DNA of 64,000 nucleotides from Thermoanaerobaculia bacterium (GCA_038230535.1 JBBRNB010000017.1:2728-66727), one strand, 5' to 3'; shown: positions 3,619 to 52,830, counted from the first letter of the stretch. Program-made: numbers and translations. Notes: generated by a model not told the origin, from the sequence alone.

Positions 3619-4214
3619 TCTGGCGTGAGAAACGGGTGCTGCTGATCGTTCTCGGTGTGCTGCTGCTCGCCAACACGGTCTTTTTCTTCACGTATCGCGT
3701 GCAATACGTCAGCCGGATCGCGGATCTCGACGGACGGCAGGAGCAGGCGCAGGCGCAGCTCGATCAGGCACGTCACCAGCGCATCACGGCGGAACAGCAG
3801 CTCGCCGCCTACAAGAAGGTGCAGAACGACCTTCAGGTGCTGTACAACGAGCGCTGGTCGACGCAGGTACAGCGGCTGACGGCGCTGATCGACGAAGTCA
3901 AGAGGCTCTCCGCCGCAAGCCACCTCGAGCCGCCCAGCTATCAGTTCTCGAACAGCGGCGAGACCAAGAGCGGAGCCAAAGGATCGATCGGTACGACCAC
4001 GGTCGGAATCGCCTTCACAGTGCAGGGAACCTACGAACAAACGCGGCGGCTCATCAATCTGCTGGAGCTGTCGGATCAATTCGTGATCATCGACGGGATC
4101 AGTCTGACGACCACCGGAAACCCCACCGACAAATCTCTGACGCTCAACATTCGACTCAAGACGTTGTTCCGCGACATGGGATTGAATGCACCCATCGCGA
4201 GCAGACAGTTGTGA
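3615..4214 (+). CDS. pilO: PilO-like pilus assembly protein
   Basis: It has one N-terminal TM helix, a long coiled coil and a C-terminal beta domain. Its position between pilN and the pilP-like gene fits the operon order. Confidence 0.5.
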
Positions 4215-4900
4215 TGGACTGGATGAACTGGAAGACCTGGACCTCGATCGGAGCGATTCTCATCGCCATCTTTGCGATCTATGCATTCGCTTCGAATACG
4301 CATACGGGACTCGATACTCCGCCCGCGCCGGCGTCGTCGTCCGCGGCGGCGCCCGTCCACAAACCCCGTCTGCCTCAGGCTGCGAGCACCCCCGGCGTTC
4401 CTCTGCTGCACATCGAATGGCTCGACGCCCAGAGCGGCAGTTACAAGAGCGAGCGGAATCTCTTCGCCTTCAGAGAACCGCCTCCGCCTCCCCCTCCGCC
4501 TCCACCCAAAGTCGTACCGCCGCCGCCCGACCAGGATCACGACGGCATCCCCGACTTTCGCGACAACTGTCCGGCGGTCTACAACCCTGACCAGGCCGAC
4601 AGCGATCACAACGGTATTGGCGACGCGTGCGACGAAAAGTGGCAGGCCTACATCAAGGCAAATCCGCCTCCGCCGCCCGCGCCGGTACCGCCGCAGTTCA
4701 CATTCAAGTACATTGGTACGTTCGGCCCGGCGAACAATCCGATCGCGACGTTCACCGGTAACGGCGAGATCGTAAACGTACGAGTGGGCGAGACGATCGA
4801 CGGCAAGTTCGTGCTGCGCAGCATCGGCATCGAATCGGTCGAGATCGGATACGTCGGATTCCCCGCGGACGCGAAGACGCGGGTACCGATCGGACAGTGA
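4211..4900 (+). CDS. PilP-like pilot/periplasmic protein with polyproline tracts and a thrombospondin type-3 Ca-binding repeat
   Basis: An N-terminal TM/signal segment is followed by the tracts [17 protein letters not shown] and [10 protein letters not shown]. The segment [35 protein letters not shown] matches the TSP3 consensus. It sits immediately upstream of the secretin. Confidence 0.45.
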
Positions 4901-27071: not shown

Positions 27072-27502
27072 ATCGTTCCGGTAAGGTGGCACGGATCGAG
27101 GACTTCGAGCCCGGGCAGCATGTCAGCTTCAGCAAGACGTTCACGGAGGACGACGTACGGCGGTTCATCGAGATCACGAGCGATGTGAATCCGCTCCACG
27201 TCGATGACGAGTTCGCCGCGGGTACGCCGTTCGGGCGCCGCATCCTCCACGGAATGCTGACGGCATCGATCCTCTCGACGATGGCCGGCATGCTGTTACC
27301 GGGAACAGGCGCGATTTACCGTTCCCAGACGATCAGGTTCCTGCTCCCGGTCTACATCGACGAAACAGTGACCGCGCATTTCGTCGTCCGATCCGTCGAT
27401 CGTGACAAGCACCGCCTCGAGATCGATACCTGGATCGAGAACGCTGCCGGACAGCACGTCATCGAAGGGATGTGCGAAGCGGGGCTGCTGCGTTCTGTGT
27501 AG
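27068..27502 (+). CDS. MaoC-like (R)-specific enoyl-CoA hydratase / hot-dog fold dehydratase
   Basis: The MaoC signature (EDDVRRFIEITSDVNPLHVDDEFA) is present. A TTG start overlaps the upstream stop. Confidence 0.7.
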   Translation: MNRSGKVARIEDFEPGQHVSFSKTFTEDDVRRFIEITSDVNPLHVDDEFAAGTPFGRRILHGMLTASILSTMAGMLLPGTGAIYRSQTIRFLLPVYIDETVTAHFVVRSVDRDKHRLEIDTWIENAAGQHVIEGMCEAGLLRSV

Positions 27503-27635
27503 GGCCGCCGCCCCCGGCGGCCGGGTACATACCTGGTGCAGAGAAGGCCGCCGAGGGCGGCGGCCCTGCACGAGGTACCGGCTGGTGGAGGTTCGCTGGC
27601 TTCGTCGAATGCGCCGTACCTTTCCAACCCCAGCC

Positions 27636-38313: not shown

Positions 38314-39213
38314 TCATTGGAAGCCGGTGGTGGCACGGCCACGCATCACCAGAATGATCGTCTCCCACCGCCCGTCCCTGGTTTCAGGGAGGGGATTCCT
38401 CGCCGTCCTGCGCCGCGTGGGTCGACCTGCGCGATCGGCCGGCGAGTCGAGGCGCGGCTTCGGCGGGCTCGGAATGACAGGTTGGTTATTGCCTGCGCGG
38501 ACGTGTGCCTGGTTCTGGCGTGAGCGTGCTGCAGCGGGAACTTGCCGCGATGCGCATGTCAGCTCGCGCACTTCGTTTGACATCTCGCGGGTTGTGTTTC
38601 TCATCGCGCGCTCAGCTCTTGGCAGCTCGCGCTCGGCTCTTGGCAGCTCGCACTCAGCTCTTGGCAGTCCGCGCTCAGCTCTTGTCAGTTCGCGCTCAGC
38701 TCTTGGCAGTTCGTACTCTGCTCTTGGCAGTTCGCGCTCTGCTCTTGGCAGCTCGTACTCTGCTCTTGGCAGTTCGCGCTCTGCTCTTGGCAGCTCGCAC
38801 TCTGCTTTTGGCAGTTCGCGCTCGGCTCTTGGCAGCTCGCACTCTGCTTTTGGCAGCTCGCGCGCTGCCTTTGGCAGTTCGCGCTCTGCTCTTGTCAGTT
38901 CGTACTCTGCTCTTGGCAGCTCGCGCTCTGCTCTTGTCAGTTCGCGCTCTGCTTTTGGCAGCTCGCGCTCTGCTCTTGTCAGTTCGTACTCTGCTCTTGG
39001 CAGCTCGCACTCTGCTTTTGGCAGTTCGCGCGCTGCCTTTGGCAGTTCGCGCTCTGCTCTTGTCAGCTCGCGCTCTGCCTTTGGCAGTTCGCGCGCTGCC
39101 TTTGGCAGTTCGCGCGCTGCCTTTGGCAGTTCGCGCTCTGCTCTTGTCAGTTCGCGCTCGGCTTTTTGATCCTCGCGTGATGCTTTTTGACTCGAGCTCG
39201 CTTCATTTCCCAC
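38314..39213 (-). CDS. Possible heptad-repeat protein (E-R/Y/C-E-L-P/T-K/R-A)x~26 encoded across the 21-bp array; coding status uncertain
   Basis: An ORF stays open through the array on the minus strand, and an AT-rich promoter-like region lies upstream. GC3 of this frame is low for this genome. Confidence 0.3.
   Translation of the reverse strand: MGNEASSSQKASREDQKAERELTRAERELPKAARELPKAARELPKAERELTRAERELPKAARELPKAECELPRAEYELTRAERELPKAERELTRAERELPRAEYELTRAERELPKAARELPKAECELPRAERELPKAECELPRAERELPRAEYELPRAERELPRAEYELPRAERELTRAERGLPRAECELPRAERELPRAERAMRNTTREMSNEVRELTCASRQVPAAARSRQNQAHVRAGNNQPVIPSPPKPRLDSPADRAGRPTRRRTARNPLPETRDGRWETIILVMRGRATTGFQ
38615..39181. repeat. Tandem 21-bp minisatellite, 26 perfect-length units plus 1 degenerate (consensus GCTCTTGGCAGTTCGCGCTCT)
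   Basis: Direct inspection shows every unit is exactly 21 bp. Variation is confined to about 6 positions. Confidence 0.9.
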
Positions 39214-39582
39214 ACCCGCACGAGCAGTCCGACCGCCGCATCCAGGCTATCGGTGCGTCCGTCATCCCGAAGCGCTGCTGTCCCATGCAGTTCTCACGCC
39301 GCGTTGTATGTTGAAGTGCGCCGTTTGAGGTATACATGCGATATACCTATGTATATTTGTGGCAACGCTGTAAACAAATTGTATCCACATGATAAAAACG
39401 CATTACGTCATTGACAACTCCATTTCACGGACCTAACTTGATATTCACCGGTCGTACCCTACGGCAATGTCGACAAGTGCCGAACGCCTGCATGGCTCTC
39501 TAGAACGTCATGCCGGTAACCACGCAAACCGCGAGCGCGTGTCGTGCCCTCGGTGTGCTTTAACGAAAACGAGAGGAACACA

Positions 39583-40661: not shown

Positions 40662-41843
40662 TCACCCGCTCCGGAGCACCATCGCTGTTCCCGCCGCGGC
40701 GAGCAGTCCACCGCCCAGCACCATCATCGTCATCGGCAATCCTCGGTGCTCGGCGATGGTGCCGGCGATGAGGTTGCCGAAGGGGAGGAAGCCGAAGAAG
40801 CCGAAGGTGTACATGCTGAGGACGCGGCCGCGCATGGCGTCGGGGACGCGCTGCTGGATGGACGTATTGCAGAGAGCGACGCAGACGACCATGGCGCAGC
40901 CACAGATGGCCAGGAGCGGGACGACGATCAGGCGTGAGTGCGTGAATCCAATCGCGCTGAGAGCGAGGCCGAACGCGGTCAGGGAGGCGATGATCATCCG
41001 CGTCATCTTCAACGGCGTCCGCACCGAGAGAGCCAGAGCGCCGGTCAGGGCGCCGATGCCGATGGCGCCCATCAGGATGCCGAGGCCGCGGGCATCATCG
41101 TGTACGTAGAGGATGTGCGCGGCCATCGGCATCAGCGTCATGTACGGAAATCCGAGCAGGCTGACGATGGCCACCAGGGCCAGGAGCAGAAAGAGGGCCC
41201 GGTCACCGCGTACGTAGCGAAAGCCTTCCATGAACCGTGTTCCGATCGCGCCGACGGGCTCCGGCACCTGCCTCCCTTGCAATCGTCCGAGGACGAAGAT
41301 CACCGGGAGGAAGGAGAGCGCGTTCAGGCAGAAGCACCAGAAGCTGCCCCAGGCCTGGAGTGTCAGTCCGGCCAGCAACGGGCCGAGGACGCGCGCAAGG
41401 TTGAACTGGAGCGAGTTCATGGCCACGGCGTTGGAGAGGCGGGCGCGGTCGTCGATGAGATCGATGATCATGGCCTGGTAGGCGGGGGCGGAGAAGGAGA
41501 TGGCCACACCGCTGACGACCGAGGCGGCCACGATCTGCCAGACGGTGATGTGGCCGGTGTAGATGGAGATGGCGATGAACATCGCCGACAGCGCCTGCAT
41601 GCATTGCGAGATGCGAAAGGTGCGCAGCCGGTCGAGGTGATCGGCCAGCACACCCGCGGGAAGCATCAGGATGACCGAGGGGGCGGAGTTGGCGAAGGCG
41701 ACGAATCCGAGCAGGAACGGCGAGCCGGTCAATCGAAAGACGAGCCATCCCTGCGCCAGCCCCTGCATCCACGAGCCGATATTCGAGACGAACTGCGCGA
41801 TCCAGAATCGCCGGTAGTCGCGTTCGCGGAAGGCTTCGAACAT
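40662..41843 (-). CDS. MFS transporter (12 TM)
   Basis: The hydropathy pattern and MFS motifs are present, with the start MFEAFRERDYRRFWIAQFVSN. Confidence 0.85.
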   Translation of the reverse strand: MFEAFRERDYRRFWIAQFVSNIGSWMQGLAQGWLVFRLTGSPFLLGFVAFANSAPSVILMLPAGVLADHLDRLRTFRISQCMQALSAMFIAISIYTGHITVWQIVAASVVSGVAISFSAPAYQAMIIDLIDDRARLSNAVAMNSLQFNLARVLGPLLAGLTLQAWGSFWCFCLNALSFLPVIFVLGRLQGRQVPEPVGAIGTRFMEGFRYVRGDRALFLLLALVAIVSLLGFPYMTLMPMAAHILYVHDDARGLGILMGAIGIGALTGALALSVRTPLKMTRMIIASLTAFGLALSAIGFTHSRLIVVPLLAICGCAMVVCVALCNTSIQQRVPDAMRGRVLSMYTFGFFGFLPFGNLIAGTIAEHRGLPMTMMVLGGGLLAAAGTAMVLRSG

Positions 41844-41849
41844 GGGGTG

Positions 41850-42350
41850 ATTATTGCGCTTCGCGCGTTGTCTGGTACTTTGCGCTTCGCGCGTTGCCTG
41901 GTACTGCGCTTCGCGCGTTGCCTGGTACTGCGCTTCGCGCGTTGCCTGGTACTGCGCTTCGCGCGTTGCCTGGTACTGCGCTTCGCGCGTTGCCTGGTAC
42001 TGCGCTTCGCGCGTTGCCGGGTACTGCGCTTCGCGCGTTGCCGGTTGTCTGCGCTTCGCGCGTTGGGGTGGTGTTGCGGTCCAGCCGGAGTTTCCCGGCT
42101 ATGCGAGGTTCATCCTGCCGGTTGCCAACCCCAACGCACGAAGTGCAGACAACCGACAACCCTAAACGCACGAAGCGCAAACCAACCCGACAACCTCAAC
42201 GCGCGAAGCGCAACCAACCGACAACCGACAACGCGCGAAGCGCAACCAACCGACAACCGACAACGCGCGAAGCGCAACCAACCGACAACCGACAACGCGC
42301 GAAGCGCAACCAACCGACAACCCCAACGCGCGAAGCGCAGCATCAGAAGC
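41850..42350. repeat. Composite palindromic repeat cluster: ~9x24-bp direct repeats (core GCGCTTCGCGCGTTG) then ~5x32-bp repeats carrying the reverse-complement core (CAACGCGCGAAGCGC)
   Basis: Seen in sequence in the divergent intergenic region between the MFS transporter and the GAF-PP2C gene. Confidence 0.9.
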
Positions 42351-42375
42351 GCAGACAACCCGTTACAATCCCACC

Positions 42376-43908
42376 ATGCTCGATCGAGACCGCCGGCGCG
42401 CCGAGCGACTGCGATTTCCTTCTCCGATCGAGGGACGTGTCGCTGAGCGGACGGTGCGCATCGTCGACATCGGCGTCCTCGGAACGCGCATCGAGCACGA
42501 TGAGCCGCTGGTGGCCGGGCCGCACACGCTGCAGTTCGAGTGGGAGGGGGAGGAGATCGCCATCGATTGCACGCTCCTCCGCACCGAGACCTCGGATGCG
42601 GCGTTCTTCAGCGGCCTGCAATTCGACGACCGCGGCCGGGTGACCGTCGGACGCATCGTCTCGACGCTGGCCGACCGCGACGAGATGGATCGCCTGCGTA
42701 CGCTGGTCGAAGCGTCGAAGCTGATCAATTCTTCGATTGAACCAGACTCGCTCTTCGCCTCGATCCTGACCGTGGCGCGCAATGAGCTGCTCGTCGACCG
42801 CGGCACGCTCTACTTCGTCGACGAACAGAAACAGGAGATCTGGACCAAGATCGCCGGCGAGCTGTCGAACGAGATCCGTCTTCCGATCGGAAAGGGTCTG
42901 GCCGGCACGGTGGCGGCGACGGGCGAGCCTTTGATCCTTCACGATGCCTACGAAGACCCGCGCTTCGACCGCTCGCTCGATCAGAAGACCGGCTATCGCA
43001 CCCGCTCCATGCTCTGCGTGCCGATCAAGAACCGCAGGCAGCGGGTGGTCGGCGTGCTGCAGTTGCTGAACAAGACCAACGGTTCGTTCGGACCGCGTGA
43101 CCTGGAGTTCCTCAGCGGCATCTCCGAACACATGGCCATCGCCATGGAGAACGCCACGCTGCACATGGAGTTGCTGGAGAAGCAGCGGATGGAGCAGGAG
43201 CTCAAGCTCGGCCACGAGATCCAGAGCCGGCTCCTGCCGTCGGCGCCGGTCGATGTTCGCGGAATCGAGCTGGGCGCGCTGAGTCTTCCCTGTTACGAGG
43301 TGGGTGGCGACTACTTCGATTTCATCGAGCTTCCCAACGGCGACCTCGGGCTGGCCATCGGCGACGTCTCCGGCAAGGGCGTCTCCGCGGCGCTGATCAT
43401 GTCCAGCGTGCAGGCGGCGCTGCGCGTGGCCGCGCCGATCGAGGAGGACCTGGCCCGCCTGGTGGCGCGACTCAACGCGCTGATCTTCCGCAGCGCCAGC
43501 GGCCGCAAGTACGCGACATTCTTCTTCGGCCGCTACACGCCGTCGACCGGGCTACTGCGATACGTCAACGCCGGGCACAACCCGCCGTATATCGTCGCCG
43601 GCGGGGAAATGACGGAGATCGGGTCGACGGGCAGACCGATCGGACTGCTCCCGGAGTCGACGTACACCGAAGGAACGGTGGAGCTGCCGCATGGCTCGAC
43701 GCTCTTCCTCTACACGGACGGTCTCAACGAAGCCGCCGGTCCTGATGAGGAGGAGTTCGGTAACGAGCAGCTACGTGAGCTCTTCCTCTCCCAGCGCGAT
43801 GCAGCGACGAAAGAGATTCCGAAGCGCGTGCTCGATGCGATCACGACCTTCGAGCGTGGGGCCAAGGCAACGGACGACAAGACGATCGTGGTGATGAGAA
43901 GGAGTTAG
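42376..43908 (+). CDS. PilZ-like N-terminal domain + GAF + PP2C-type (SpoIIE/RsbU-like) serine phosphatase
   Basis: The N-terminus has RRAERLR..DIGVLG (RxxxR / DxSxxG-like). A GAF domain follows. The C-terminal PP2C has GDVSGKG and a conserved Asp. Confidence 0.75.
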   Translation: MLDRDRRRAERLRFPSPIEGRVAERTVRIVDIGVLGTRIEHDEPLVAGPHTLQFEWEGEEIAIDCTLLRTETSDAAFFSGLQFDDRGRVTVGRIVSTLADRDEMDRLRTLVEASKLINSSIEPDSLFASILTVARNELLVDRGTLYFVDEQKQEIWTKIAGELSNEIRLPIGKGLAGTVAATGEPLILHDAYEDPRFDRSLDQKTGYRTRSMLCVPIKNRRQRVVGVLQLLNKTNGSFGPRDLEFLSGISEHMAIAMENATLHMELLEKQRMEQELKLGHEIQSRLLPSAPVDVRGIELGALSLPCYEVGGDYFDFIELPNGDLGLAIGDVSGKGVSAALIMSSVQAALRVAAPIEEDLARLVARLNALIFRSASGRKYATFFFGRYTPSTGLLRYVNAGHNPPYIVAGGEMTEIGSTGRPIGLLPESTYTEGTVELPHGSTLFLYTDGLNEAAGPDEEEFGNEQLRELFLSQRDAATKEIPKRVLDAITTFERGAKATDDKTIVVMRRS

Positions 43909-43995
43909 GGGCTGAACGTCGGGTTTGGTGTATACGCGGCGGCGTCTCGCCGCCTCGAGCAGCAACCCTACTACCCGCAGATTAGCGTCGCATAC

Positions 43996-44190
43996 TCAAG
44001 GCTCGCTGTCCTCCTCGTCAAGAGAGGGGTCGTCAGGGTCGACCTCCATCAGCACGCCGTTGTGTCGGATGACCAGCGCGGTCTTGGTTTGACGGGCAAT
44101 CTCGCGCGCGCGATGCGCTGCGCGTAGCAAGGCTCGCGGCGCGGCTTGCATGTCTGGATTGGGCAGCTTCGATTCCAGTCGGACTCTCAT
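43996..44190 (-). CDS. Small acidic-tailed protein translationally coupled downstream of the zeta-like ATPase
   Basis: It overlaps the upstream gene by 4 nt. At 64 aa it is a possible antitoxin-like partner. Confidence 0.35.
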   Translation of the reverse strand: MRVRLESKLPNPDMQAAPRALLRAAHRAREIARQTKTALVIRHNGVLMEVDPDDPSLDEEDSEP

Positions 44191-44714
44191 CGATCGGATC
44201 CCTCTTCCAGCAGTCGTGGCTCCCAGTCGCTACTGTCGAACCATTGCCAATGATCAACCCGATCCCTGTAGACGTCGAGAAAGTTTCGCATGCCACTTGC
44301 GAATCGCCTCCGAATGACGTCCGGCGGGACATCGTGTCCTCCCTGCCGGGCGCGCATCGCGACGCGGGAGATGGCGTCGTCGACGGACTCGAGCGAGAGG
44401 AAGATCAGTACAACCGTGAAGCCCGCTTCGCGCCAGGCGTCAATGCGGCGCAGGTAGGTATGTCCGGACAGCGTCGTTTCGAAGGCGAAGCTGCGCCCGG
44501 CGGCGGCATGACGGTCAATCTCTTCCAGCATCATCCGGCCGGCGCGGAAAGCGGCCGCGCCGGGATCGAATGGGGAAAAGCCGGCGGCAATCAGATCGGC
44601 ATTGACGAAGACCGGCAGTCCAGCTTCGGCCGGCAGAAACTCGCGCGCGAAGGTGGTCTTGCCCGCGCCGTTCGGTCCGGCGAAGATGATGACCTTCTTG
44701 TCGGTGTGCGCCAT
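44187..44714 (-). CDS. Zeta-toxin / AAA_33-like P-loop kinase family protein
   Basis: It has the Walker A VIIFAGPNGAGKTT and an overall zeta-toxin-like architecture over 175 aa. Confidence 0.55.
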   Translation of the reverse strand: MAHTDKKVIIFAGPNGAGKTTFAREFLPAEAGLPVFVNADLIAAGFSPFDPGAAAFRAGRMMLEEIDRHAAAGRSFAFETTLSGHTYLRRIDAWREAGFTVVLIFLSLESVDDAISRVAMRARQGGHDVPPDVIRRRFASGMRNFLDVYRDRVDHWQWFDSSDWEPRLLEEGSDR

Positions 44715-44877
44715 GCGTCAGTCGTATACATGTTGTGGTCATCGAGGGGAAGAGCCGGCGTCATCTCCCTCCGATCGTTGCGTACGCCGCCGAGATGCCG
44801 GAAGGGAGCGGTCAGGGGCATGAAGGGGAAGTTATTCGACGTCAACGCGTGGATGCGCTGCTACCATTCGATGAAAG

Positions 44878-44960
44878 CTCAATGTTGACTGTTGAATGTT
44901 CAATGTTGAATGACCAAAGGCAGCGGGTGCCGGGCGTTCCATTCAACATTCAACATTTGC
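44878..44960. promoter_or_regulatory. Palindromic operator-like element: 3 direct TTGAATG(TT) repeats and 2 inverted CATTCAA repeats around a 27-bp centre
   Basis: Seen in sequence in the divergent region between the zeta-like operon and the Ser/Thr kinase gene. Confidence 0.4.
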
Positions 44961-45001
44961 AGTGCCTGCTCAGCCGGTCACACTCAACCTGAACAACGCC
45001 C

Positions 45002-47692
45002 ATGCTCCAGCCTGACGCAATGCTCGGCCCGTATCGAATCGTGAGCCTCATCGGCGAGGGAGGCATGGGCGCGGTGTATCGCGCCAAAGACACGCGGCTC
45101 GGGCGCGACGTAGCGGTGAAGATCCTCACAGCGCTCACGCTGAGCGATCAGGAGCGGGTGCAGCGCTTCGAGCAGGAGGCGCGCGCAACGGGGATGCTGA
45201 ACCATCCCAACCTGCTGACGATTTACGACGTCGGCAACGAGGGCGGTACGGCCTACATCGTCAGCGAACTGCTGGAGGGGGAGACGCTGCGCGAACGGCT
45301 GGAGCGCGGCCCGCTTCCGCCACGCCGCGCCATCGACGCGGCGCTGCAGGTCGCGAACGGTCTGGCCGCGGCGCACGAGAAAGGAATCATTCACCGCGAC
45401 CTCAAGCCGGACAATATCTTCCTGACTCGCGACGGACGGGCCAAGATCCTCGACTTCGGCATCGCCAAACTGAGCTCGAAGTCCGACGACGGCGGTCTCT
45501 TTCAGCACGCCGCCACGGAGCCGGGCATGGTCCTCGGCACAGTCGGCTACATGTCGCCGGAGCAGGTGAGGGGAGAGACGGTCGACACCCGCTCCGACAT
45601 CTTCGCCTTCGGCGCCATCCTCTACGAGATGCTGACCGGCATGCGCGCCTTCAAGCGGAGCTCGTCGATCGAGACGCTGAGCGCCATCCTGAAAGAAGAT
45701 CCGCCCGACATCGCCGATTCGCTGCCAAGCGTTCCGCCGGCGCTGGAGCGTCTCACCCGCCGCTGCCTGGAGAAGGACCGCGCGTTGCGTTTCCAGTCGG
45801 CGCGCGACCTCGCCTTCAACCTCGAGACAATGTCGTCGCCATCGACGCAGGGGACGTTCTCGAACGTTCCGAATCCCGGGCACTCGGCGACGATGCGGAT
45901 CCATCCCGACTCCGCAGCGCGGCCGACGGCTGCCACCGCCATCCGTCCCGTCACCTCGGCGATCCCGGCAACGATGCGCACGACAGCCCGGCCGGCGTTT
46001 GTACAGCCACGGCGCGTCTCGCCGCTTCTGCTCGCGCTGTTCTTCATCGCCGCGATCGGCGGCGCGGCGTTCGGCGGCTGGTACCTGGCGATGAACCGGA
46101 TGAAGGAGGAGGCACCGCCGGAGGTAGTCTTCCATCGGATGACGTTTCGCCGCGGCGAGGTGAGCTCTGCGCGCTTCGGCCCGGACGGCGACTCGATCAT
46201 CTACAGCGCGGTGTGGGACGGCAATCCATCGGAAGTGTTCGTGGCCAACCGTCAGAGTCCGGAAGCGCGGCCGCTCGGCGTGAAGGATGCCGACGTGCTG
46301 GCGGTCTCGAAGTCGACAGAGCTGGCCGTGCTCCTTCGCCGAGACCGTCTCACGGGCCTCGGCACGCTGGCGCGCGTCCCGGTCGCCGGCGGCACACCAC
46401 GCGAAGTCGCCGATCAGGTGCTGCAGGCTGACTGGTCGCCGGACGGCGCGAATCTCACTGCCATCTTCGGCGGGAGCGGGAAGTTCCGGATCGAGTCGCC
46501 GATCGGGCGCGTCCGCTACGAAACCCCGCATAAGTTGAGCAGCGTTCGCGTCGCAGCGGACGGCCGCATCGCGTTCATCGAGTCGTACACGGGAAAAGAC
46601 GACGTCGCTGTCCTCGATACGAAGTCGGCCAAGCCGGTCTCGATCGCGCGAGGGTGGAGTCACGGTGTCAACGGTCTGGCCTGGGCCCCCGGCGGCAAGG
46701 AGATCTGGATCACCGGTACCGACTCCGGCGCGCCACCCGCCCTCTACGCGGTGAATGCCGACACCGGCGATACGCGTCTGGTCAATCGTCTGACCGGCTC
46801 GATGCGCCTCTACGACATCTCGGCGGCCGGGCACGTGCTGCTGTCGAACGGAATGTGGCGGGCGGCGCTCGAGGTGCAAGCCCACGGCGAGACGGCCGAG
46901 CACGATCTCTCGTGGCTCGACTGGTCGATGCTGGCCGACCTTTCACGCGACGGACAGACCATTCTCTTCAACGAACCGCGAGAGGGCGGCGGCGCCGCCA
47001 GCGCGATGTATCTGCGCCGCCTCGACGCGCCGACGCCGGTGCGGATCGGCGATGGCTACGGCGACGCCATCTCGCCCGATGGCAAATACGTCCTGGGCCA
47101 CAACAACGCCAAGCTCGTCGTCATCCCCACCGGCAGCGGCGAAGCACGCGAGCTCAGGACCGATGGCGCGTTCGACTTCGGCGCAGCCTGGCTGCCGGAC
47201 GGACGGCGCGTCGTCGTGGCCGGCGCGCTGCCGAAGAAGGGCTACCAGCTCCACGTGATCGACACACTCGACGAATCGGTGAAGCCGATCTCGCCGGAGA
47301 ACATCTGGGGCGATGCCTCGCGGACGTTCGCGGTCTCACCCGACGGCCACTACGTTGCCGGGATGACGAAACAGCAGACCATCGCGCTCTACCCGGTCGA
47401 CGCCAACGCCGAGCCGTCCATCGTTCCGGCGATCGAGCCCGGCGAGGTACCGATCGCCTGGTCGGCCGACAGCGCATCGCTCTTCGTCTACCGCCCCACC
47501 GCCCTCCCCGCGCAAGTGACGCGTGTGACTCTCGCCACCGGTGCCCGCGAGATCTGGAAGCAGTTCTCCCCGACCGACCCCGCCGGCGTCTACAAGATCG
47601 CCCCGATCTGCATCACCCCCGACGGCACCGCCTACGCCTACGATGCCCTGCGGATGCTCGGCGATCTGTATGTCGCGGATGGGCTGAGGTAG
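45002..47692 (+). CDS. Ser/Thr protein kinase with TM segment and C-terminal TolB/WD40-like beta-propeller
   Basis: It has the kinase subdomains (GxGxxG, VAVK, HRDLKPDN, DFG) and a propeller-like C-terminal half. Confidence 0.9.
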   Translation: MLQPDAMLGPYRIVSLIGEGGMGAVYRAKDTRLGRDVAVKILTALTLSDQERVQRFEQEARATGMLNHPNLLTIYDVGNEGGTAYIVSELLEGETLRERLERGPLPPRRAIDAALQVANGLAAAHEKGIIHRDLKPDNIFLTRDGRAKILDFGIAKLSSKSDDGGLFQHAATEPGMVLGTVGYMSPEQVRGETVDTRSDIFAFGAILYEMLTGMRAFKRSSSIETLSAILKEDPPDIADSLPSVPPALERLTRRCLEKDRALRFQSARDLAFNLETMSSPSTQGTFSNVPNPGHSATMRIHPDSAARPTAATAIRPVTSAIPATMRTTARPAFVQPRRVSPLLLALFFIAAIGGAAFGGWYLAMNRMKEEAPPEVVFHRMTFRRGEVSSARFGPDGDSIIYSAVWDGNPSEVFVANRQSPEARPLGVKDADVLAVSKSTELAVLLRRDRLTGLGTLARVPVAGGTPREVADQVLQADWSPDGANLTAIFGGSGKFRIESPIGRVRYETPHKLSSVRVAADGRIAFIESYTGKDDVAVLDTKSAKPVSIARGWSHGVNGLAWAPGGKEIWITGTDSGAPPALYAVNADTGDTRLVNRLTGSMRLYDISAAGHVLLSNGMWRAALEVQAHGETAEHDLSWLDWSMLADLSRDGQTILFNEPREGGGAASAMYLRRLDAPTPVRIGDGYGDAISPDGKYVLGHNNAKLVVIPTGSGEARELRTDGAFDFGAAWLPDGRRVVVAGALPKKGYQLHVIDTLDESVKPISPENIWGDASRTFAVSPDGHYVAGMTKQQTIALYPVDANAEPSIVPAIEPGEVPIAWSADSASLFVYRPTALPAQVTRVTLATGAREIWKQFSPTDPAGVYKIAPICITPDGTAYAYDALRMLGDLYVADGLR

Positions 47693-47699
47693 CCGGGGG

Positions 47700-48125
47700 A
47701 GTTGCGCTTCGCGCGTTGTCTGCGCTTCGCGCGTTGACTGCGCTTCGCGCGTTGTCTGCGCTTCGCGCGTTGTCTGCGCTTCGCGCGTTGACTGCGCTTC
47801 GCGTGTTGTCTGCGCTTCGCGCGTTGTTTGCGCTTCGCGCGTTGTCTGCGCTTCGCGCGTTGTCTGCGCTTCGCGCGTTGTCTGTGCTTCGCGCGTTGTC
47901 TGGGCTTCGCGCGTTGTCTGCGCTTCGCGCGTTGTCTGCGCCCCGCGCGTTGTCTGTTGGCTCCTATCTTGCCTAACGCGCGACGAAGGAGCGCAGCCAA
48001 CGCCAAAGGCAGACAACGCGAAAGGCAGCCAACGCCAAAGGCAGACAACGCCAAAGGCAGCCAAAAGGCAGCCAAAAGACAGACAACGCAGAGCGAAGCG
48101 AGGCAAGACTCGAAGCAGTCCTATG
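47700..48125. repeat. Composite repeat cluster: ~14x18-bp direct repeats (TGCGCTTCGCGCGTTGTC) then degenerate inverted arm
   Basis: Seen in sequence. It belongs to the same core family as 41850-42350. Confidence 0.9.
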
Positions 48126-48192
48126 CAAAGCGGGGGGGGCACCGCTATACTGCGCCATCCATTTTTCAGAGGATCCGGGAGAGCAGGCACGA

Positions 48193-49257
48193 ATGGCGAA
48201 GGTGCAGGGTAAAAAAGCGGCTACCAGTCTGAAGAAAAAAGCCGCCACCAAAAAGGTCGCGAGCGGAAAAAAGAGCAAGAAACCGGCACCGAAAAAGACC
48301 GCGGCCGCGAAACCGAAAGCGGCCGTGAAGAAGAAGGCTCCGTCTCCGAAGAAGAAGTCCTCTCCGAAGAAGAAGCCTGCGCCGAAGAAAGCTGCTCCGA
48401 AAAAAGCTGCTCCGAAAAAGGCTGCGCCCAGGAAAGCCTCTGCCAAAAAGGCTTCGCCAAAGAAGGCCTCTGCCAAAAAGGCCGCGCCCCAAAAGGCCGC
48501 GCCGAAGAAGGCCGCGCCGAAGTCTGCTGAAAAGAAGGCGGTTCTGAAGGCCGCCGCCAAACCCGTTTCGAAGCCGGCCGCGAAGCCCGCCGCGAAGGCG
48601 GAGAAGACGGCCGAAGCGAAGGTCAGGACCGCAGCCAAGGCAGCAGCCAAGGCGGTTCTGAAGGCCGCCGCCGCTCCGGGCACTGCCCGTGTTGCCCCGG
48701 CTGACGAGAAGAAGCGCCGCCGTTCCCGTCCGCGTGTGACATCCAGTGGACCGGCTACGGCAGCCTGGTTCTCGCAGGGAGACCGTCCGCGCTCATCGTC
48801 GTTCATCCCCGCGCCACCCCGCGCCGAGGCACCGTCGCTCGTGGCTGCCCCTCCGGCGTCGTCCGATCGCCTCGTCGGATCGCACGAGCTGACCGAATTC
48901 GCAGTTCGCACGGTCCCGGTCCGCATCGACATCGAAGCCGGCGGCGGCCGCATCTACCTGACCATCAATCCCAACGAGACCACCCTCAAGGTCGGCGAAG
49001 GCATCGAGTGGGATTTCCGCTACCTCGGCGGCGCCGACGTCATCATCGAAGAGATGTTCATCGAGTTCGTCAAGCCTTCACCCTTCTCGCACACGGTCTT
49101 CCGTTCGCGCCGCCCCGGTGCCGCCCGCCCTCACCGTCAGCTCTCCGGTCCGGCGCTGACGTCCGCCGCCGGCAAGCGTCTTCAGTACACCGTCCGCGCC
49201 TTCAACGCCTTCAAGACCGAGATGGCGACGGCCACGCCGGAGTTGGTCGTCTCGTAG
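48193..49257 (+). CDS. Histone H1-like / AlgP-like nucleoid protein (KAAP/KKAA repeats) with unique C-terminal globular domain
   Basis: The N-terminal 180 aa are K/A/P-rich repeats (PKKAAPKKAAPKKAAP...). The C-terminal roughly 150 aa are not low complexity. Confidence 0.7.
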   Translation: MAKVQGKKAATSLKKKAATKKVASGKKSKKPAPKKTAAAKPKAAVKKKAPSPKKKSSPKKKPAPKKAAPKKAAPKKAAPRKASAKKASPKKASAKKAAPQKAAPKKAAPKSAEKKAVLKAAAKPVSKPAAKPAAKAEKTAEAKVRTAAKAAAKAVLKAAAAPGTARVAPADEKKRRRSRPRVTSSGPATAAWFSQGDRPRSSSFIPAPPRAEAPSLVAAPPASSDRLVGSHELTEFAVRTVPVRIDIEAGGGRIYLTINPNETTLKVGEGIEWDFRYLGGADVIIEEMFIEFVKPSPFSHTVFRSRRPGAARPHRQLSGPALTSAAGKRLQYTVRAFNAFKTEMATATPELVVS

Positions 49258-49261
49258 CTGC

Positions 49262-49460
49262 GCGTGCTTCGCCGCGCGTTGTCTGCGCTTCGCGCGTTCT
49301 CGGTTGTCTGCGCTTCGCGCGTTGAGGTTGGGCGATCTGCTACGGCATGGCCAGCTCAACGCGCGAAGCGCAGACAACCGACAACCGAGTACGCGCGAAG
49401 AGCAATATTAGAGAACGTGCGAAGCGCAATACAAAACAACGCGCGAAGCGCAATACAGCA
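49262..49460. repeat. Third member of the GCGCTTCGCGCGTTG / CAACGCGCGAAGCGC inverted repeat family
   Basis: Two direct cores lie on the left and three reverse-complement cores on the right, flanking a unique centre. Confidence 0.8.
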
Positions 49461-49461
49461 G

Positions 49462-52400
49462 CTACCTCGCGTGCTGTTCCTGCAGCGTAGTGATCGTCTT
49501 CAAACCTTCGCGCAGTGAACGGATGCCGTCGACGGCGGCGGTGGCGGCGGTGAGCGTCGTCAGGCAACTGATGCTGTGCTGTAGCGCGGTGCGGCGGATG
49601 TAGGTGTCGTCGTAGAACGACTTCTTACCCAACGGCGTGTTGATGATGAGCGTCACTTCGCCATTGATCATCCGGTCGACGATGTTCGGGCGCTCCGACT
49701 CATGGACCTTGAAGGCGAGCCCGGCTTCGACGCCGTTGTTCTGCAGAAAATCGCGCGTTCCGGACGTGGCGACGACCTTGAATCCGAGTTGGGCCAGGTC
49801 CTTCGCAAGCTGAACCACGACCGGCCGCTTGTCGTTGTCGTTGACGGACATGAACGCCGTGCCGTCCAGGGGAAGGTCGACGCCGGCGCCTAGCAGCGCT
49901 TTCGCGTAGGCTTCGCCGAACGTTGGGGCGGATCCCATCACTTCGCCGGTCGACTTCATCTCCGGACCTAACACCGTATCCTCATGCGGAAAGCGGCCGA
50001 ACGGGAAGACCGGCGACTTCACGAAATAGTCGGCCACACGCGGCTCATGGGTGAGTCCCAGCTCCTGCAGCGACATTCCCGCCATCACCTTCGCCGCGAT
50101 CTTCGCGAACGGTACGCCGGTGGCCTTGGAGACGTAAGGCACCGTTCGCGACGCGCGCGGATTCACTTCGAGCACGTAGAGGTCGCCGTGGTAGATCGCG
50201 TACTGCACGTTCATCAACCCGATCACGTTCAGCGCCTTCGCCAGTTGCACCGTGCGGCGGCGGACTCGATCCTGTTCGCGGAGGCCGATGATGTACGGCG
50301 GGATCACAGTCGTCGAATCGCCGGAGTGAATGCCTGCCTCCTCGATGTGCTCCATCACGCCGGCGATCACCACATCGTGACCGTCGGAGATGGCATCGAC
50401 GTCGAGCTCGATGGCATCCTCGAGAAAACGGTCGATGAGGATCGGATGACCCGGCGCGGCTTCCATGGCGTAGCCGATGTATTCGCGCAGGTTCGATTCG
50501 TCGTAGACGATGGCCATGGCCCGGCCGCCAAGTACATATGACGGGCGGACCACCACCGGAAAGCCGATGCGGCGGGCCACCTCGATCGCTTCCGCCTCCG
50601 ACCTGCCTGTGCCGTTCTCCGGGACCAGGATCTCGTGCTCGCGAGCCAGGGCACCGAATCTCTCGCGGTCTTCGGCGATGTCGATCGACTCGACCGACGT
50701 TCCCCACATCGGCACACCCGCGGCAGCCAGCGACTTGGCCAGCTTCAATGGCGTCTGGCCGCCGAACTGCACGATGACGCCCTCCGGTTTCTCGATCTCG
50801 ACGATCTCCAGTACATCTTCGAGCGTGAGCGGCTCGAAGTAGAGACGGTCGGAGGTGTCGTAGTCGGTCGATACCGTCTCCGGGTTGCAGTTGACCATGA
50901 TGGTCTCGAAGCCGATCTCGCGCAGTGCGAAGGATGCATGCACGCAGCAGGTGTCGAACTCGATTCCCTGCCCGATGCGGTTCGGCCCGGAACCCAGGAT
51001 CATCACTTTCCGGCGCGACGTCGGCTCGGCTTCGCATTCGCGCTCATAGGTCGAGTAGAGATACGGGGTCGTGGCCTCGAACTCGGCGGCGCAGGTGTCG
51101 ACGCGCTTATAGACCGGGCGAACGCCCAGGGCGTGACGCTGTTTGCGGACGTCGTCCTCGGATTGATGGGTGAGGTCGCCGATCTGTTTGTCGCTGAACC
51201 CTTCGCGTTTGAGCGCCAGGAGCGAGAGTGCAGAAAGTGTAGGGCCGCCGCCCTCGGCGGCCTGATTCTCGCGCGGCGCGAGGCTGTCCGCCGGGGGCGG
51301 CGGCCCTACACTCACCCCGGCAGCTACTGCTTTCTCCATCTCCACGATCTTCCGGATCTCGCGCAGGAACCAGCAGTCGATTGACGAGATGGCGTTGATC
51401 TCATCCACCGTCATTCCGGCGCGGAAGGCGTCGCCGATCGCGAAGATGCGCTCGGGCTGTGGGGTCCGGAGCAACGCCGAAGCTTTGTCCCGGTCGTAGC
51501 CGCGAGACTCCAGTCCGGCCACGCCGATCTCGAGCGAACGGAGGCCTTTCTGCAGCGCTTCGTTGAACGTCCTGCCGATGGCCATCGATTCGCCGACGGA
51601 CTGCATCGAGAGGCCGAGCGTCGGCTTGGTCTGGCGGAACTTCTCGAAGGCGAATCGGGGAATCTTCACCACGACGTAGTCGATCGCCGGCTCGAACGAC
51701 GCCGGAGTCTTTTTCGTAATGTCGTTCGGGATCTCGTCCAGCGTGTAGCCGGCGGCAAGCTTCGCGGCGAACTTCGCGATCGGGAAGCCGGTGGCCTTCG
51801 ATGCCAGTGCCGAGGAACGCGATACACGGGGATTCATCTCGATCGCCAGGCGACGTCCTGTGGTCGGATGAACGGCGAACTGGATGTTCGACCCGCCGGT
51901 CTCGACGCCGATGGCGCGGATGATCCGCTTGGCCTCGTCGCGCATGGCCTGGTACTCGGTATTCGTCAGCGTCTGCTGCGGCGCCACGGTGATGGAATCG
52001 CCGGTGTGGACGCCCATCGGATCGAGGTTCTCGATGCTGCAGACGACGATGACGTTGTCCGCCTTGTCGCGCATGACCTCGAGCTCGAATTCCTTCCAGC
52101 CGGCCACCGACTCCTCGACGAGCACGCGGTGTACCGGCGAGAGCTCGAGGCCGTGGCTGACGACGGACCGCAGCTCTTCGATGTTGTAGGCGATGCCGCC
52201 GCCGGAGCCGCCGAGGGTGAATGACGGCCGGATGACCAGCGGGTAGCCGATGCTGGCGGCGAACTCCTCGGCGTCATCCTCGGTGGCCGCATAGGCCGAG
52301 CGCGGCACTTCCACGCCGATCTCGATCATCTTCTCTTTGAAGAGCTGCCGGTCTTCCGCGGTCTTGATTGCCTCGGCATTCGCGCCGATCAGCTCGACGT

Positions 52401-52734
52401 TGTGACGAGCCAGGGCGCCGTTCTCGTACAAGGCCATGGCCAGGTTGATGCCGGTCTGACCGCCGACGGTCGGCAGGATCGCGTCCGGTTTCTCACGCTC
52501 GATGATCCGCTCCAGCGTCTCGGGCGTGAGCGGCTCGATGTACGTCCGGTCGGCGAGCTCGGGGTCGGTCATGATCGTGGCCGGGTTCGAGTTGACGAGG
52601 ATGATGCGATATCCCTCGTCCTTCAACGCCTTGCACGCCTGCGTGCCGGAGTAGTCGAATTCACATGCCTGTCCGATGACGATGGGGCCGGATCCGATGA
52701 TGAGAATGGAGTGTAGGTCGGTGCGCTTCGGCAT
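49462..52734 (-). CDS. carB: Carbamoyl-phosphate synthase large subunit
   Basis: It has two ATP-grasp halves, an oligomerisation domain and an MGS-like domain. The N-terminus is [30 protein letters not shown]. Confidence 0.95.
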
Positions 52735-52830
52735 GAGGCGCGCGCATGATACAAGGTGACAGGGTCTCGCGGTGGTGGGGTCTTGCGGTGCCCGCCGCAC
52801 GGCCACTTCGCTTCGTGCTCCGCAACCACG

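What the first reader, a model, noticed from the sequence alone, without database searches (positions are those of the whole stretch)
41850..49460. Family of intergenic composite palindromes built from tandem GCGCTTCGCGCGTTG repeats and their reverse complement, at three loci
At 41850-42350, 47700-48125 and 49262-49460 there are tandem arrays of a 15-nt GC-rich core. The left arms carry GCGCTTCGCGCGTTG in 24-bp or 18-bp units, 9 and 14 copies. The right arms carry the exact reverse complement CAACGCGCGAAGCGC in 32-bp units, or degenerate copies. Each locus could therefore fold into a very large hairpin or cruciform. They are not CRISPR, since the inter-core sequence is constant. They contain no ORF with sensible composition. 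They occupy divergent, co-directional and convergent intergenic contexts, and two of them bracket the H1-like nucleoid protein gene exactly. This looks like an undescribed REP/BIME-like or MITE-like repeat family, or a structured regulatory or recombination element.
Basis: seen in the sequence. Interest (0 to 1): 0.8.

Follow-up and report, generated by a model that had tools for sequence, protein, structure and literature searches.

The report
Expanded hairpin-repeat palindromes between genes
Three gaps between genes are filled by mirror-image stacks of a tiny GC hairpin repeat from an apparently undescribed REP-like repeat family found across Thermoanaerobaculia genomes; it is real and unusually expanded here, but it is a variant of a known kind of bacterial intergenic repeat, not a new system.

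Summary
The 15-mer GCGCTTCGCGCGTTG occurs 35 times in the window against 1.1 expected. All copies lie in three intergenic loci, forward copies on the left and reverse copies on the right.

The unit is a GC mini-hairpin (GCGC-TTC-GCGC) plus a GTTG tag, joined by GGTTGTC heptamers. The same module occurs at up to 14 separate loci per genome in nine Thermoanaerobaculia MAGs, usually as 2+2 units with mirrored spacings around a non-conserved centre.

All three window sites carry related elements in sibling genomes, but unit number and hairpin sequence differ, down to a 73-bp minimal version. The window arrays (9+7, 14, 3+4) are therefore local expansions of long-resident elements.

On the CAAC strand the loops follow GNA/GNNA, the rule for very stable d(GCGNAGC) DNA mini-hairpins. 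There is no target-site duplication, conserved core or Rfam match. RAYT genes of this lineage are flanked by a different, GTAG-type REP family.

Best reading: an orphan REP/BIME-like palindromic family that grows by slippage. It may provide transcript-end structure, but that function is inferred. No specific link to the H1-like gene was found.

The parts
41854..42065 (+). Locus 1, left arm: 9 direct units of TGCGCTTCGCGCGTTG plus linker (period 24-26). It starts 11 nt from the ATG of the MFS gene (40662-41843, minus strand).
42066..42127 (.). Locus 1, centre. It is not conserved in the orthologous elements of L021, L043, L061 and L071.
42128..42340 (-). Locus 1, right arm: 7 reverse units (CAACGCGCGAAGCGC plus CAACCGA heptamer linkers, period 32). 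The two inner units are variants (GCAC-GAA-GTGC compensated; GCAC-GAA-GCGC). The arm ends 35 nt before the ATG of the GAF-SpoIIE gene, with TACAAT 6 nt upstream of that ATG.
47702..47956 (+). Locus 2, left arm: 14 direct units of 18 nt (TGCGCTTCGCGCGTTGTC). The first core (47704) lies 11 nt after the stop codon of the Ser/Thr kinase gene (45002-47692).
47957..47992 (.). Locus 2, centre.
47993..48100 (-). Locus 2, right arm: about 5 units of a 16-nt variant (GCAG[A/C]CAACGC[C/G]AAAG). It is followed by the separately conserved promoter-like block of the H1-like gene (CTATGCAAAG ... TATACT, 48121-48151), which is not part of the element.
49260..49324 (+). Locus 3, left arm: one variant hairpin unit (GCGCGTGCTTCGCCGCGC-GTTGTC) plus two core units. 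It starts 2 nt after the stop codon of the H1-like gene (48193-49257).
49325..49356 (.). Locus 3, centre.
49357..49452 (-). Locus 3, right arm: 3-4 reverse units (cores at 49357, 49413 and 49437, and a variant at about 49390). It ends 9 nt before the stop codon of carB (49462-52806, minus strand).

Best explanation
The three loci are locally over-expanded members of an orphan REP/BIME-like family of extragenic palindromes found in Thermoanaerobaculia (Acidobacteriota).

Anatomy (shown):
- On one strand the unit reads 5'-CAAC-[GC stem of 4-9 bp, GNA or GNNA loop]-AA-3'. The complementary strand reads TT-hairpin-GTTG.
- Units are joined by 0-2 copies of the heptamer CAACCGA (GGTTGTC on the other strand).
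- Units form a direct array in each arm, and the two arms face each other around an unconserved centre.
- The elements sit tightly against gene ends, mostly 3' ends.
- They persist at the same sites across species while unit number and hairpin sequence turn over.

Mechanism (inferred):
- The very stable single-stranded-DNA mini-hairpin d(GCGNAGC), set in perfect direct repeats, drives replication slippage.
- Slippage adds or removes whole units (18/24/25/32 nt) or single heptamers (7 nt).
- This produced the 9+7 and 14-unit arrays seen in this genome.

Function (inferred, weakest step):
- As with REP/BIME elements, incoming transcripts meet a GC hairpin followed by a G/U-rich tail.
- The element therefore probably acts as a generic transcript-end or insulating structure, or is merely tolerated there.
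- It is not a regulator specific to the flanking genes.
For: Family and geometry:
- The two-core pattern hits 69 stretches, mostly in nine Thermoanaerobaculia MAGs.
- Typical members are ++-- with mirrored spacings such as 22,32|32,22.
- Among neighbouring cores no more than 300 nt apart, forward-then-reverse occurs 40 times and reverse-then-forward twice (p = 4e-10).
- Spacings fall in the classes 18/25/32 and 22/29/36, which are 7-nt steps.

Hairpin rather than fixed sequence:
- Upstream of the constant linker, the hairpins vary in stem while keeping pairing: GCGGC-TTC-GCCGC, GCGCC-TGC-GGCGC, GCGCGC-TTC-GCGCGC, GCGCGGCCC-TGGC-GGGCCGCGC.
- 268 of 306 three-base loops are TNC (GNA on the CAAC strand) against 266 of 4398 in background hairpins. 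Without the dominant core it is still 48 of 86.
- The recurrent four-base loops (TGGC, TGAC, TAGC, TACC, TAAC) read GNNA on that strand.
- This matches the d(GCGNAGC)/d(GCGNNAGC) mini-hairpin rule, Tm about 76 C (PMC13037366).

Residence and turnover:
- The MFS/SpoIIE site carries 9+7 units here, 5+4 in L061, 1-2 in L021 and L043, and a 73-bp minimal palindrome in L071.
- The kinase-to-H1 and H1-to-carB sites vary likewise.

Context (own gene caller):
- 22 convergent, 22 co-directional, 6 divergent and 2 intragenic, against a background of 57/127/48. Convergent enrichment has an odds ratio of 2.4-3.3, p = 0.009-0.0007.
- The first hairpin usually starts 0-7 nt after a stop codon.

Not mobile-looking:
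- No target-site duplication.
- The centres are unrelated between copies.

Not a known RNA.
Against: - No function was tested. The 4-bp hairpin with a GUUGUC tail is not a canonical terminator.
- The terminator scan found 9 sites against 6.6 expected.
- In L050 an array is followed by a canonical terminator, which suggests the array does not terminate transcription by itself.
- The best-conserved site, locus 1, is a divergent promoter region where no transcript enters from outside.
- Slippage is inferred from the pattern only.
- The wobble test does not favour the CAAC strand: G.T pairs on the GTTG strand 40, against A.C 24.
- The same 15-mer also forms tandem arrays with other linkers in Polyangiaceae and other Acidobacteriota MAGs. 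Slippage alone does not explain that.
- The context counts include orthologous sites from several genomes, so they are not independent.
Confidence: 0.6

Rival explanations
1. It is an actively mobile, single-stranded-DNA element of the REP/REPIN type. An HUH tyrosine (Y1) enzyme recognises the mini-hairpin and its 5' CAAC tag, cuts and rejoins there, and so spreads units to new sites. Recombination between the repeated CAAC tags would also create the unit and heptamer steps.
For: - The anatomy matches the REP and IS200/IS605 substrates: a tetranucleotide 5' of a small hairpin (PMC6006769).
- The loop rule points to single-stranded DNA.
- The lack of a target-site duplication is what Y1 transposition predicts.
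- The lineage has RAYT-annotated Y1_Tnp genes.
- In one other Acidobacteriota MAG (L045) a homologous Y1 gene lies about 90 nt from a three-unit CAACGCGCGAAGCGC array.
- Orphan hairpin families with non-GTAG tags are known in Acidobacteria, for example the CnGA foot.
Against: - All five Thermoanaerobaculia RAYT loci examined (L058, L013, L199, L201, L204) are flanked by canonical GTAG REPs and GCCCGC-TTCA-GCGGGC-GACAG hairpins.
- L199-L204 have no CAAC-core hit within 4 kb. In L058 and L013 the nearest unit is 4.3 kb away.
- The centres are unique to each copy.
- The three window sites are occupied in every syntenic sibling examined, so no recent insertion is visible.
- The L045 flank also carries other palindromes, so that association is not specific.
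Confidence: 0.15
2. The elements are selected gene punctuation. The inward-facing arms act as non-canonical terminators, pause sites or 3'-end protectors for incoming transcripts. The outward-facing CAAC-rich side supplies promoter-proximal or leader sequence for genes that start at the element edge.
For: - Convergent gene ends are enriched.
- Hairpins begin 0-7 nt after stop codons.
- Single-arm elements face the incoming gene 14 times out of 19 (p = 0.06).
- At the H1-to-carB site every syntenic genome has some inverted hairpin pair, from different families.
- 8 of 23 genes that start beside an arm have TACAAT or CATAAT 5-10 nt before the ATG, directly after the last unit.
- Pure heptamer palindromes in unrelated taxa show the same polarity, 36 to 1.
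Against: - There is no U-tract, and the stems are shorter than in known terminators.
- The terminator scan was not above shuffles.
- Canonical U-tract terminators exist in the same genomes, even beside an array.
- In co-directional sites the arm facing the upstream gene is larger only 13 times against 7 (p = 0.26).
- Only 3 of about 20 gene 3' ends in this window carry the element.
- No expression data were available.
Confidence: 0.2
3. The arrays are binding-site arrays for a DNA-binding protein: a nucleoid protein such as the neighbouring H1-like protein, a transcription factor, or a centromere- or iteron-type system.
For: - Arrays of 18-32-bp direct repeats in two inverted blocks resemble plasmid centromeres and iterons (from memory).
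- Two loci flank the H1-like gene.
- Locus 1 sits in a divergent promoter region that is conserved in five genomes.
Against: - The family is dispersed at many gene ends, up to 14 stretches in one genome, and is not next to par or rep genes.
- The hairpin sequence varies while its pairing is kept, which is not what a duplex sequence-specific site predicts.
- Unit number at one site ranges from about 1 to 9.
- In orthologues the H1-like gene lacks the elements or has other families beside it.
Confidence: 0.05

Closest known systems
REP / BIME / REPIN elements (GTAG-tagged repetitive extragenic palindromes with RAYT transposases)
   Same: - A small GC-rich hairpin with a conserved tetranucleotide next to its foot.
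- Many extragenic copies, mostly downstream of genes.
- Units paired in inverted orientation.
- Variable unit number at a locus, as in BIME-2 clusters.
- No target-site duplication.
   Different: - The tag is CAAC, not GT[AG]G.
- The stem is only 4-9 bp, against 7-20 bp.
- Units within an arm are direct tandem repeats rather than alternating in orientation.
- The linkers are heptamer microsatellites.
- The centres are unique to each copy.
- The RAYT genes of this lineage are flanked by a separate, canonical GTAG family, which is also present in this window at 27497-27572 and 51237-51313.
CGTC-tagged REPs and other orphan palindromic families (Di Nocera et al. 2013, PMC3733652); class 3 TnpA-Y1-associated hairpins with a CnGA foot in Acidobacteria (PMC6006769)
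   Same: - REP-like hairpin families with a non-GTAG tag.
- No dedicated transposase identified.
- High copy number in some Acidobacteria.
   Different: - The tag and hairpin sequence differ.
- Tandem direct arrays and heptamer linkers were not described for those families in the sections read.
- Class 3 genes could not be searched for here.
Mini-hairpin DNA d(GCGAAGC) / d(GCGNAGC) (Hirao and colleagues; PMC13037366)
   Same: The CAAC strand of every core contains GCGAAGC. The variant loops are GCA, GTA, GGA, GTCA and GCCA, which is the published GNA/GNNA rule with a C-G closing pair.
   Different: The published natural examples are single hairpins at phage replication origins and promoters, not a dispersed tandem repeat family.
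Foldback (FB) transposons of eukaryotes (from memory)
   Same: Long inverted arms, each built from tandem copies of a short unit, with variable copy number.
   Different: - Those are eukaryotic, kilobase-sized, and some encode a transposase.
- There is no evidence of homology or of transposition here.
Cyanobacterial STRR heptanucleotide repeats (from memory)
   Same: Tandem 7-nt repeats in intergenic DNA. The linker GGTTGTC/CAACCGA is of this kind and is widespread in metagenomes.
   Different: - The heptamer sequences differ.
- STRRs are not described as strictly polar inverted pairs or as joined to GC hairpins.

Membership tests
REP/REPIN (RAYT-associated) | GT[AG]G tetranucleotide 0-2 nt 5' of the hairpin | tested here: not met
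   The tag is CAAC (GTTG on the other strand) in 394 of 602 core-like hits. True GTAG REPs exist separately in the same genomes.
REP/REPIN (RAYT-associated) | Fully paired GC-rich basal stem of 7-20 nt with a loop of 2-5 nt (rule quoted in PMC6006769) | tested here: inconclusive
   The loop is 3-5 nt and the stem is GC-only, but the dominant stem is 4 bp and the variants are 5-9 bp.
REP/REPIN (RAYT-associated) | Many dispersed, mostly extragenic copies in one genome | tested here: met
   The two-core pattern hits 14 stretches in BP_50 and 13 in BP_51, which are lower bounds. 50 of 52 placed elements are intergenic. The window's own genome could not be searched.
REP/REPIN (RAYT-associated) | Inverted doublets that can form a larger hairpin | tested here: met
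   Forward-then-reverse 40 against reverse-then-forward 2. Fold z-scores are -17.9 and -9.3 for loci 1 and 3. However, the arm hairpins are not always mutually complementary.
REP/REPIN (RAYT-associated) | The cognate RAYT (Y1_Tnp) gene is flanked by the same repeats (a REPtron) | tested here: not met
   Five Thermoanaerobaculia RAYT loci are flanked by GTAG REPs and GACAG-tagged hairpins, not by CAAC units. Only L045, from another class, has CAAC units about 90 nt from a Y1 gene. Whole genomes were not searchable.
MITE (DDE-transposase derived) | Target-site duplication flanking terminal inverted repeats | tested here: not met
   The longest shared flank word averages 2.78 nt, the same as the 2.78 obtained with shuffled pairing, in 36 two-armed elements.
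MITE (DDE-transposase derived) | A conserved internal sequence shared by copies | tested here: not met
   The centres range from 21 to about 330 nt and are unrelated between copies, and between orthologous sites.
CRISPR array | Constant repeats separated by unique spacers of similar length | tested here: not met
   The inter-core sequence is constant within an arm, at 3-17 nt. The two-core pattern finds nothing in viral contigs.
Intrinsic (Rho-independent) terminator | A GC-rich stem of at least 5 bp followed directly by a U-tract | tested here: not met
   The tail is GUUGUCGGUUG with no U run. The consensus scan found 9 sites against 6.6 +/- 3.1 in shuffles. Canonical terminators are present elsewhere.
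Mini-hairpin DNA motif | GCGNAGC or GCGNNAGC: a C-G closing pair with a G...A loop | tested here: met
   The core contains GCGAAGC. TNC loops are 268 of 306 against 266 of 4398 in background, and the recurrent four-base loops read GNNA on the CAAC strand. Stability in vivo is not testable here.
Known structured RNA (Rfam) | A match to a curated covariance model | tested here: not met
   Only sub-threshold eukaryotic miRNA-precursor hits in 38-50 kb. None at gathering score in ten related loci.

The most novel reading that the evidence does not exclude
The CAAC-tagged mini-hairpin and its GGTTGTC heptamer may be parts of a widespread, strictly polar punctuation module.

- Its 5' arm is always G/T-rich and its 3' arm always C/A-rich, on both strands.
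- It recurs across phyla: the same 15-mer forms arrays in Thermoanaerobaculia, other Acidobacteriota and Polyangiaceae, and heptamer palindromes with 36:1 polarity occur in genomes of 43-68% GC.
- It would be generated or maintained by a still unidentified single-stranded-DNA enzyme, or by a dedicated transcription function. One candidate is repeated pause sites: GGTTGTCGGTTG fits the G-11 G-10 ... Y-1 G+1 pause consensus once per heptamer (consensus from memory, untested).
Probability: 0.12. Interest if true: 0.75.

Novelty: new variant of a known kind. Interest (0 to 1): 0.45.

Why it matters
- It adds a REP-like family from an uncultured acidobacterial class that breaks two textbook REP rules: it has no GTAG tag and no RAYT association.
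- The family is built on the most stable DNA mini-hairpin known.
- This gives a natural system for asking whether such hairpins drive repeat expansion, or act as transcript-end or insulating structures.
- Practically, these arrays are likely contig-break and copy-number error points in short-read MAGs. They also look superficially like CRISPR arrays or mobile elements to annotation tools.
- The strict polarity of the related heptamer palindromes across many taxa remains unexplained and may be the more general lead.

Tried and rejected
- **CRISPR:** rejected, because the inter-core sequence is constant and the periods are 18-32 nt.
- **Coding repeat:** rejected. My GC3-based gene caller (validated on the Pfam-annotated genes) calls nothing in the arrays, and the periods are not all multiples of 3.
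- **Known RNA family:** none found.
- **Assembly artefact as the whole explanation:** rejected. Independent assemblies carry arrays at the orthologous site and elsewhere: L061 5+4, L046 6+2, L049 7, L018 6. Exact copy numbers here remain unverified.
- **MITE:** rejected.
- **H1-specific element:** rejected.
- **RAYT search:** phmmer with E. coli RayT found nothing. A motif screen followed by Pfam found Y1_Tnp genes. jackhmmer and three further RAYT loci showed they carry other repeat families.
- **L154:** a Y1 gene lies near a heptamer match, but both linker matches in that locus read through as coding sequence (my translation), so it was discarded.
- **Wobble-asymmetry test for the functional strand:** inconclusive.
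- **Arm-size asymmetry in co-directional sites:** not significant.
- **Exact-protein look-up of the window's H1-like protein:** returned nothing, so the source contig and genome could not be retrieved.
- **Literature search for the heptamer or linker sequences:** nothing relevant.

Full report
**1. Observation**

Tandem Repeats Finder reports these arrays:
- 41855-42065: period 24, 8.7 copies, 96% matches.
- 42126-42339: period 32, 6.7 copies.
- 47703-47956: period 18, 14.1 copies.
- 47993-48064: period 16/32.
- 49387-49457: period 24.

GCGCTTCGCGCGTTG with up to two mismatches occurs 35 times in the window, against 1.14 expected and a maximum of 4 in 100 shuffles. Every copy lies in these three loci. 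In each locus the forward copies come first and the reverse copies second.

The flanking genes are:
- an MFS transporter (40662-41843, minus strand);
- a GAF-SpoIIE phosphatase (42376-43908);
- a Ser/Thr kinase with a beta-propeller (45002-47692);
- a Lys/Ala-rich H1-like protein (48193-49257);
- carB (49462-52806, minus strand).

Folded as single-stranded DNA, locus 1 gives -199 kcal/mol (z = -17.9) and locus 3 gives -80.5 kcal/mol (z = -9.3). Locus 2 reaches only z = -3.9.

**2. Organism**

The H1-like protein has hundreds of homologues. Those that carry a source name are mostly labelled Thermoanaerobaculia bacterium (Acidobacteriota). Gene order is shared with Thermoanaerobaculia MAG contigs. 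The window's own genome could not be retrieved.

**3. Anatomy of the unit**

Comparing many copies shows that the conserved unit is TT-GCGC-TTC-GCGC-GTTG. This is an 11-nt hairpin with a 3' GTTG tag. On the other strand it reads CAAC-GCGC-GAA-GCGC-AA.

Units are joined by 0-2 copies of the heptamer GGTTGTC (CAACCGA on the other strand). This explains why the spacings fall into the classes 18/25/32 and 22/29/36.

The hairpin matters more than its exact sequence. Next to the constant linker, other copies carry GCGGC-TTC-GCCGC, GCGCC-TGC-GGCGC, GCGCGC-TTC-GCGCGC, GCGCGCGCC-GGC-GGCGCGCGC or GCGCGGCCC-TGGC-GGGCCGCGC. Inside locus 1, one unit is the compensated variant GCAC-GAA-GTGC.

Among tagged hairpins, 268 of 306 three-base loops are TNC, which is GNA on the CAAC strand. 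Background GC hairpins in the same DNA give 266 of 4398. Leaving out the dominant core, the figure is still 48 of 86. The recurrent four-base loops (TGGC, TGAC, TAGC, TACC, TAAC) read GNNA on that strand.

This is the published rule for the extraordinarily stable DNA mini-hairpins d(GCGNAGC) and d(GCGNNAGC). GCGAAGC melts at about 76 C, whereas ordinary TTC-loop hairpins have no such stability or nuclease resistance (PMC13037366). I infer that the relevant folded form is single-stranded DNA of the CAAC strand. A wobble-pair asymmetry test did not confirm this: 40 G.T against 24 A.C on the GTTG strand.

**4. The family**

A scan of one genome per species for two cores no more than 30 nt apart returned 69 stretches. 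Most are from nine Thermoanaerobaculia MAGs: 14 stretches in BP_50, 13 in BP_51, 7 in Chersky.9_17, and so on.

The usual member has two forward and two reverse units, with mirrored spacings around a centre of 21 to about 330 nt. The centres are unrelated between copies.

Among neighbouring cores no more than 300 nt apart, the orientation forward-then-reverse occurs 40 times and the opposite twice.

The window's arrays of 9+7 and 14 units are the largest seen in this lineage. The next largest are 7, 7, 6 and 6.

**5. Evolution at the three sites**

The MFS/SpoIIE divergent gap carries a family element in five genomes: 9+7 units here, 5+4 in L061, one or two plus variants in L021 and L043, and a 73-bp minimal palindrome in L071.

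The kinase-to-H1 gap holds:
- 14 units plus variants here;
- a ++-- element with different hairpins in L070;
- one unit in L071;
- one unit on each side in L076;
- another palindrome family plus three variant units in L073;
- nothing of the kind in L075.

The H1-to-carB gap holds family elements here, in L070 and in L075. L071 has other hairpins with similar tags. L073 and L076 have a second palindromic family.

In L070 and L076 the hairpins of the two arms are not complementary to each other, although the linkers are. The local hairpins are therefore what is kept, not the giant foldback.

These comparisons show long residence at the sites with rapid turnover of unit number. They also show no dependence on the H1-like gene.

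**6. Context**

I used a GC3-based gene caller that reproduces the Pfam-supported genes of the window. It places 22 elements between convergent genes, 22 between co-directional genes, 6 between divergent genes and 2 inside genes. The background is 57/127/48. Convergent enrichment has an odds ratio of 2.4-3.3, with p = 0.009-0.0007. Four of the six divergent cases are the same orthologous site.

The first hairpin typically starts 0-7 nt after a stop codon. Arms that face a gene start end 5-45 nt before the ATG. In 8 of those 23 cases TACAAT or CATAAT lies 5-10 nt before the ATG, which suggests leaderless transcripts.

Only the three loci of this window carry the module. Other gene ends have ordinary hairpins, including canonical U-tract terminators.

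**7. Tests against known kinds**

- **Rfam:** no family matches.
- **MITE:** there is no target-site duplication.
- **Intrinsic terminator:** the units fail the definition, with no U-tract and 9 scan hits against 6.6 expected. In L050 an array is followed by a canonical terminator.
- **REP systems:** the tag is CAAC rather than GT[AG]G.
- **RAYT association:** the lineage does have RAYT-annotated Y1_Tnp genes. In five loci these are flanked by canonical GTAG REPs (ccGTAGCCCCCGGCTTCAGCCGGGGG) and GACAG-tagged hairpins, not by CAAC units.
- **A separate GTAG family:** a GTAG REP doublet family is present in this window too. The CAAC family is therefore a second, orphan family.
- **The one exception:** the only Y1 gene found next to CAAC units is in a different Acidobacteriota MAG (L045), where other palindromes are present as well.
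- **Literature:** orphan REP-like families (CGTC-tagged) and hairpin families with other tags in Acidobacteria are described (PMC3733652, PMC6006769). I found no description of this one.

**8. Interpretation**

*Shown:* a dispersed, lineage-wide palindromic repeat family. It has a hairpin unit, a strict arm polarity, 7-nt linker steps, tight placement at gene ends, site persistence with copy-number turnover, and no sign of cut-and-paste mobility.

*Inferred:* expansion by replication slippage on stable hairpins within direct repeats.

*Inferred, and weaker:* a generic transcript-end or insulating role, as proposed for REP/BIME elements.

*Rivals:* HUH-mediated mobility, selected terminator or leader punctuation, and protein-binding arrays. 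Each is weighed in its own section of this report.

**9. Wider observations**

The same 15-mer forms tandem arrays with unrelated linkers in:
- two Polyangiaceae MAGs (33-42-nt units with a conserved flank of about 90 nt);
- other Acidobacteriota and a Pyrinomonadaceae MAG (35-40-nt units);
- one Actinomycetota MAG (a single locus).

This may be convergence on the minimal stable hairpin. My rough expectation for chance arrays is about 1-2, so single loci carry little weight.

A metagenome scan with the linker alone returned at least 120 stretches. Most are pure heptamer arrays from diverse taxa. Where an inverted partner exists, it lies downstream in 36 cases and upstream in 1. That is the same polarity as in the window, and it is unexplained.

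**10. Verdict**

This is a real feature that was correctly spotted. It is best filed as a new, orphan variant of REP/BIME-like extragenic palindromes, expanded to an unusual degree in this genome. Interest is moderate, at 0.45.

Noticed in passing
window 51237-51313 (inside carB) and 27497-27572 (intergenic): There are two copies of a canonical GTAG-type REP doublet (GTGTAGGGCCGCCGCCCYCGGCGGCC ... inverted copy). The carB copy encodes residues 498-524, in a loop that is absent from the carB of L073, L075 and L076 and differs in L070 and L071. It looks like an in-frame intragenic REP insertion at a hot spot.
   Followed up: yes
window 38607-39163: A separate 21-bp tandem array of 26.5 copies (CGCGCTCTGCTCTTGGCAGTT), unrelated to the core. 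A minus-strand ORF (38314-39213) would read ELPRAER-type heptads, but my gene caller does not call it. The array has no match in any fetched locus. An AT-rich stretch follows at about 39300-39400.
   Followed up: partly
L079-L198 (metagenome loci): Pure heptamer arrays (GGTTGTC, AGTTGTC, GGTTGCC and similar) occur in many unrelated taxa, with locus GC of 0.43-0.68. They are often inverted pairs with strict polarity: the complementary array lies downstream in 36 cases and upstream in 1. Several sit within a few nucleotides of a start codon on the opposite strand.
   Followed up: partly
L002, L015, L059 (Polyangiaceae MAGs); L005, L033, L045, L069 (other Acidobacteriota); L053 (Actinomycetota): The identical 15-mer forms one-directional tandem arrays with quite different linkers in other phyla. 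The three Polyangiaceae arrays examined share a conserved flank of about 90 nt. In L053 the repeated unit includes the last 14 nt and the stop codon of the adjacent gene.
   Followed up: partly
L058 1153-1717, L013 4759-5325, L199, L201, L204 (gene at 4001-4453 in each): RAYT-annotated Y1_Tnp genes of Thermoanaerobaculia are flanked by GTAG REPs (GTAGCCCCCGGCTTCAGCCGGGGG) and by GCCCGC-TTCA-GCGGGC-GACAG hairpins. This lineage therefore has a classical REPtron alongside the orphan CAAC family.
   Followed up: yes
L073 11099-11235 and L076 10955-11105: A second palindromic repeat family (GGAGCGCTGGCGTCTCGCCGGCTGGC... with its inverted copy) occupies the H1-to-carB gap in these genomes, in place of the CAAC family.
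   Followed up: no
window 48121-48192 and orthologous loci: The block CTATGCAAAG...CGCTATACTGCGCCATCCATTTTTCAG upstream of the H1-like gene is nearly invariant across six genomes, even where synteny is lost (L074). It is probably the gene's own promoter and leader.
   Followed up: partly
window 42363-42375 and 41844-41855; related loci: Several genes next to the elements have a TACAAT, CATAAT or AATAAT box 5-10 nt upstream of the ATG and no Shine-Dalgarno sequence. This suggests frequent leaderless mRNAs in this lineage.
   Followed up: partly
L154 9400-10560: In an AT-rich, Bacteroidota-like contig, a Y1_Tnp gene with its own hairpins appears to split a metH-like gene. The upstream half of that gene ends in the heptamer sequence (…KLSVVG-stop).
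   Followed up: no
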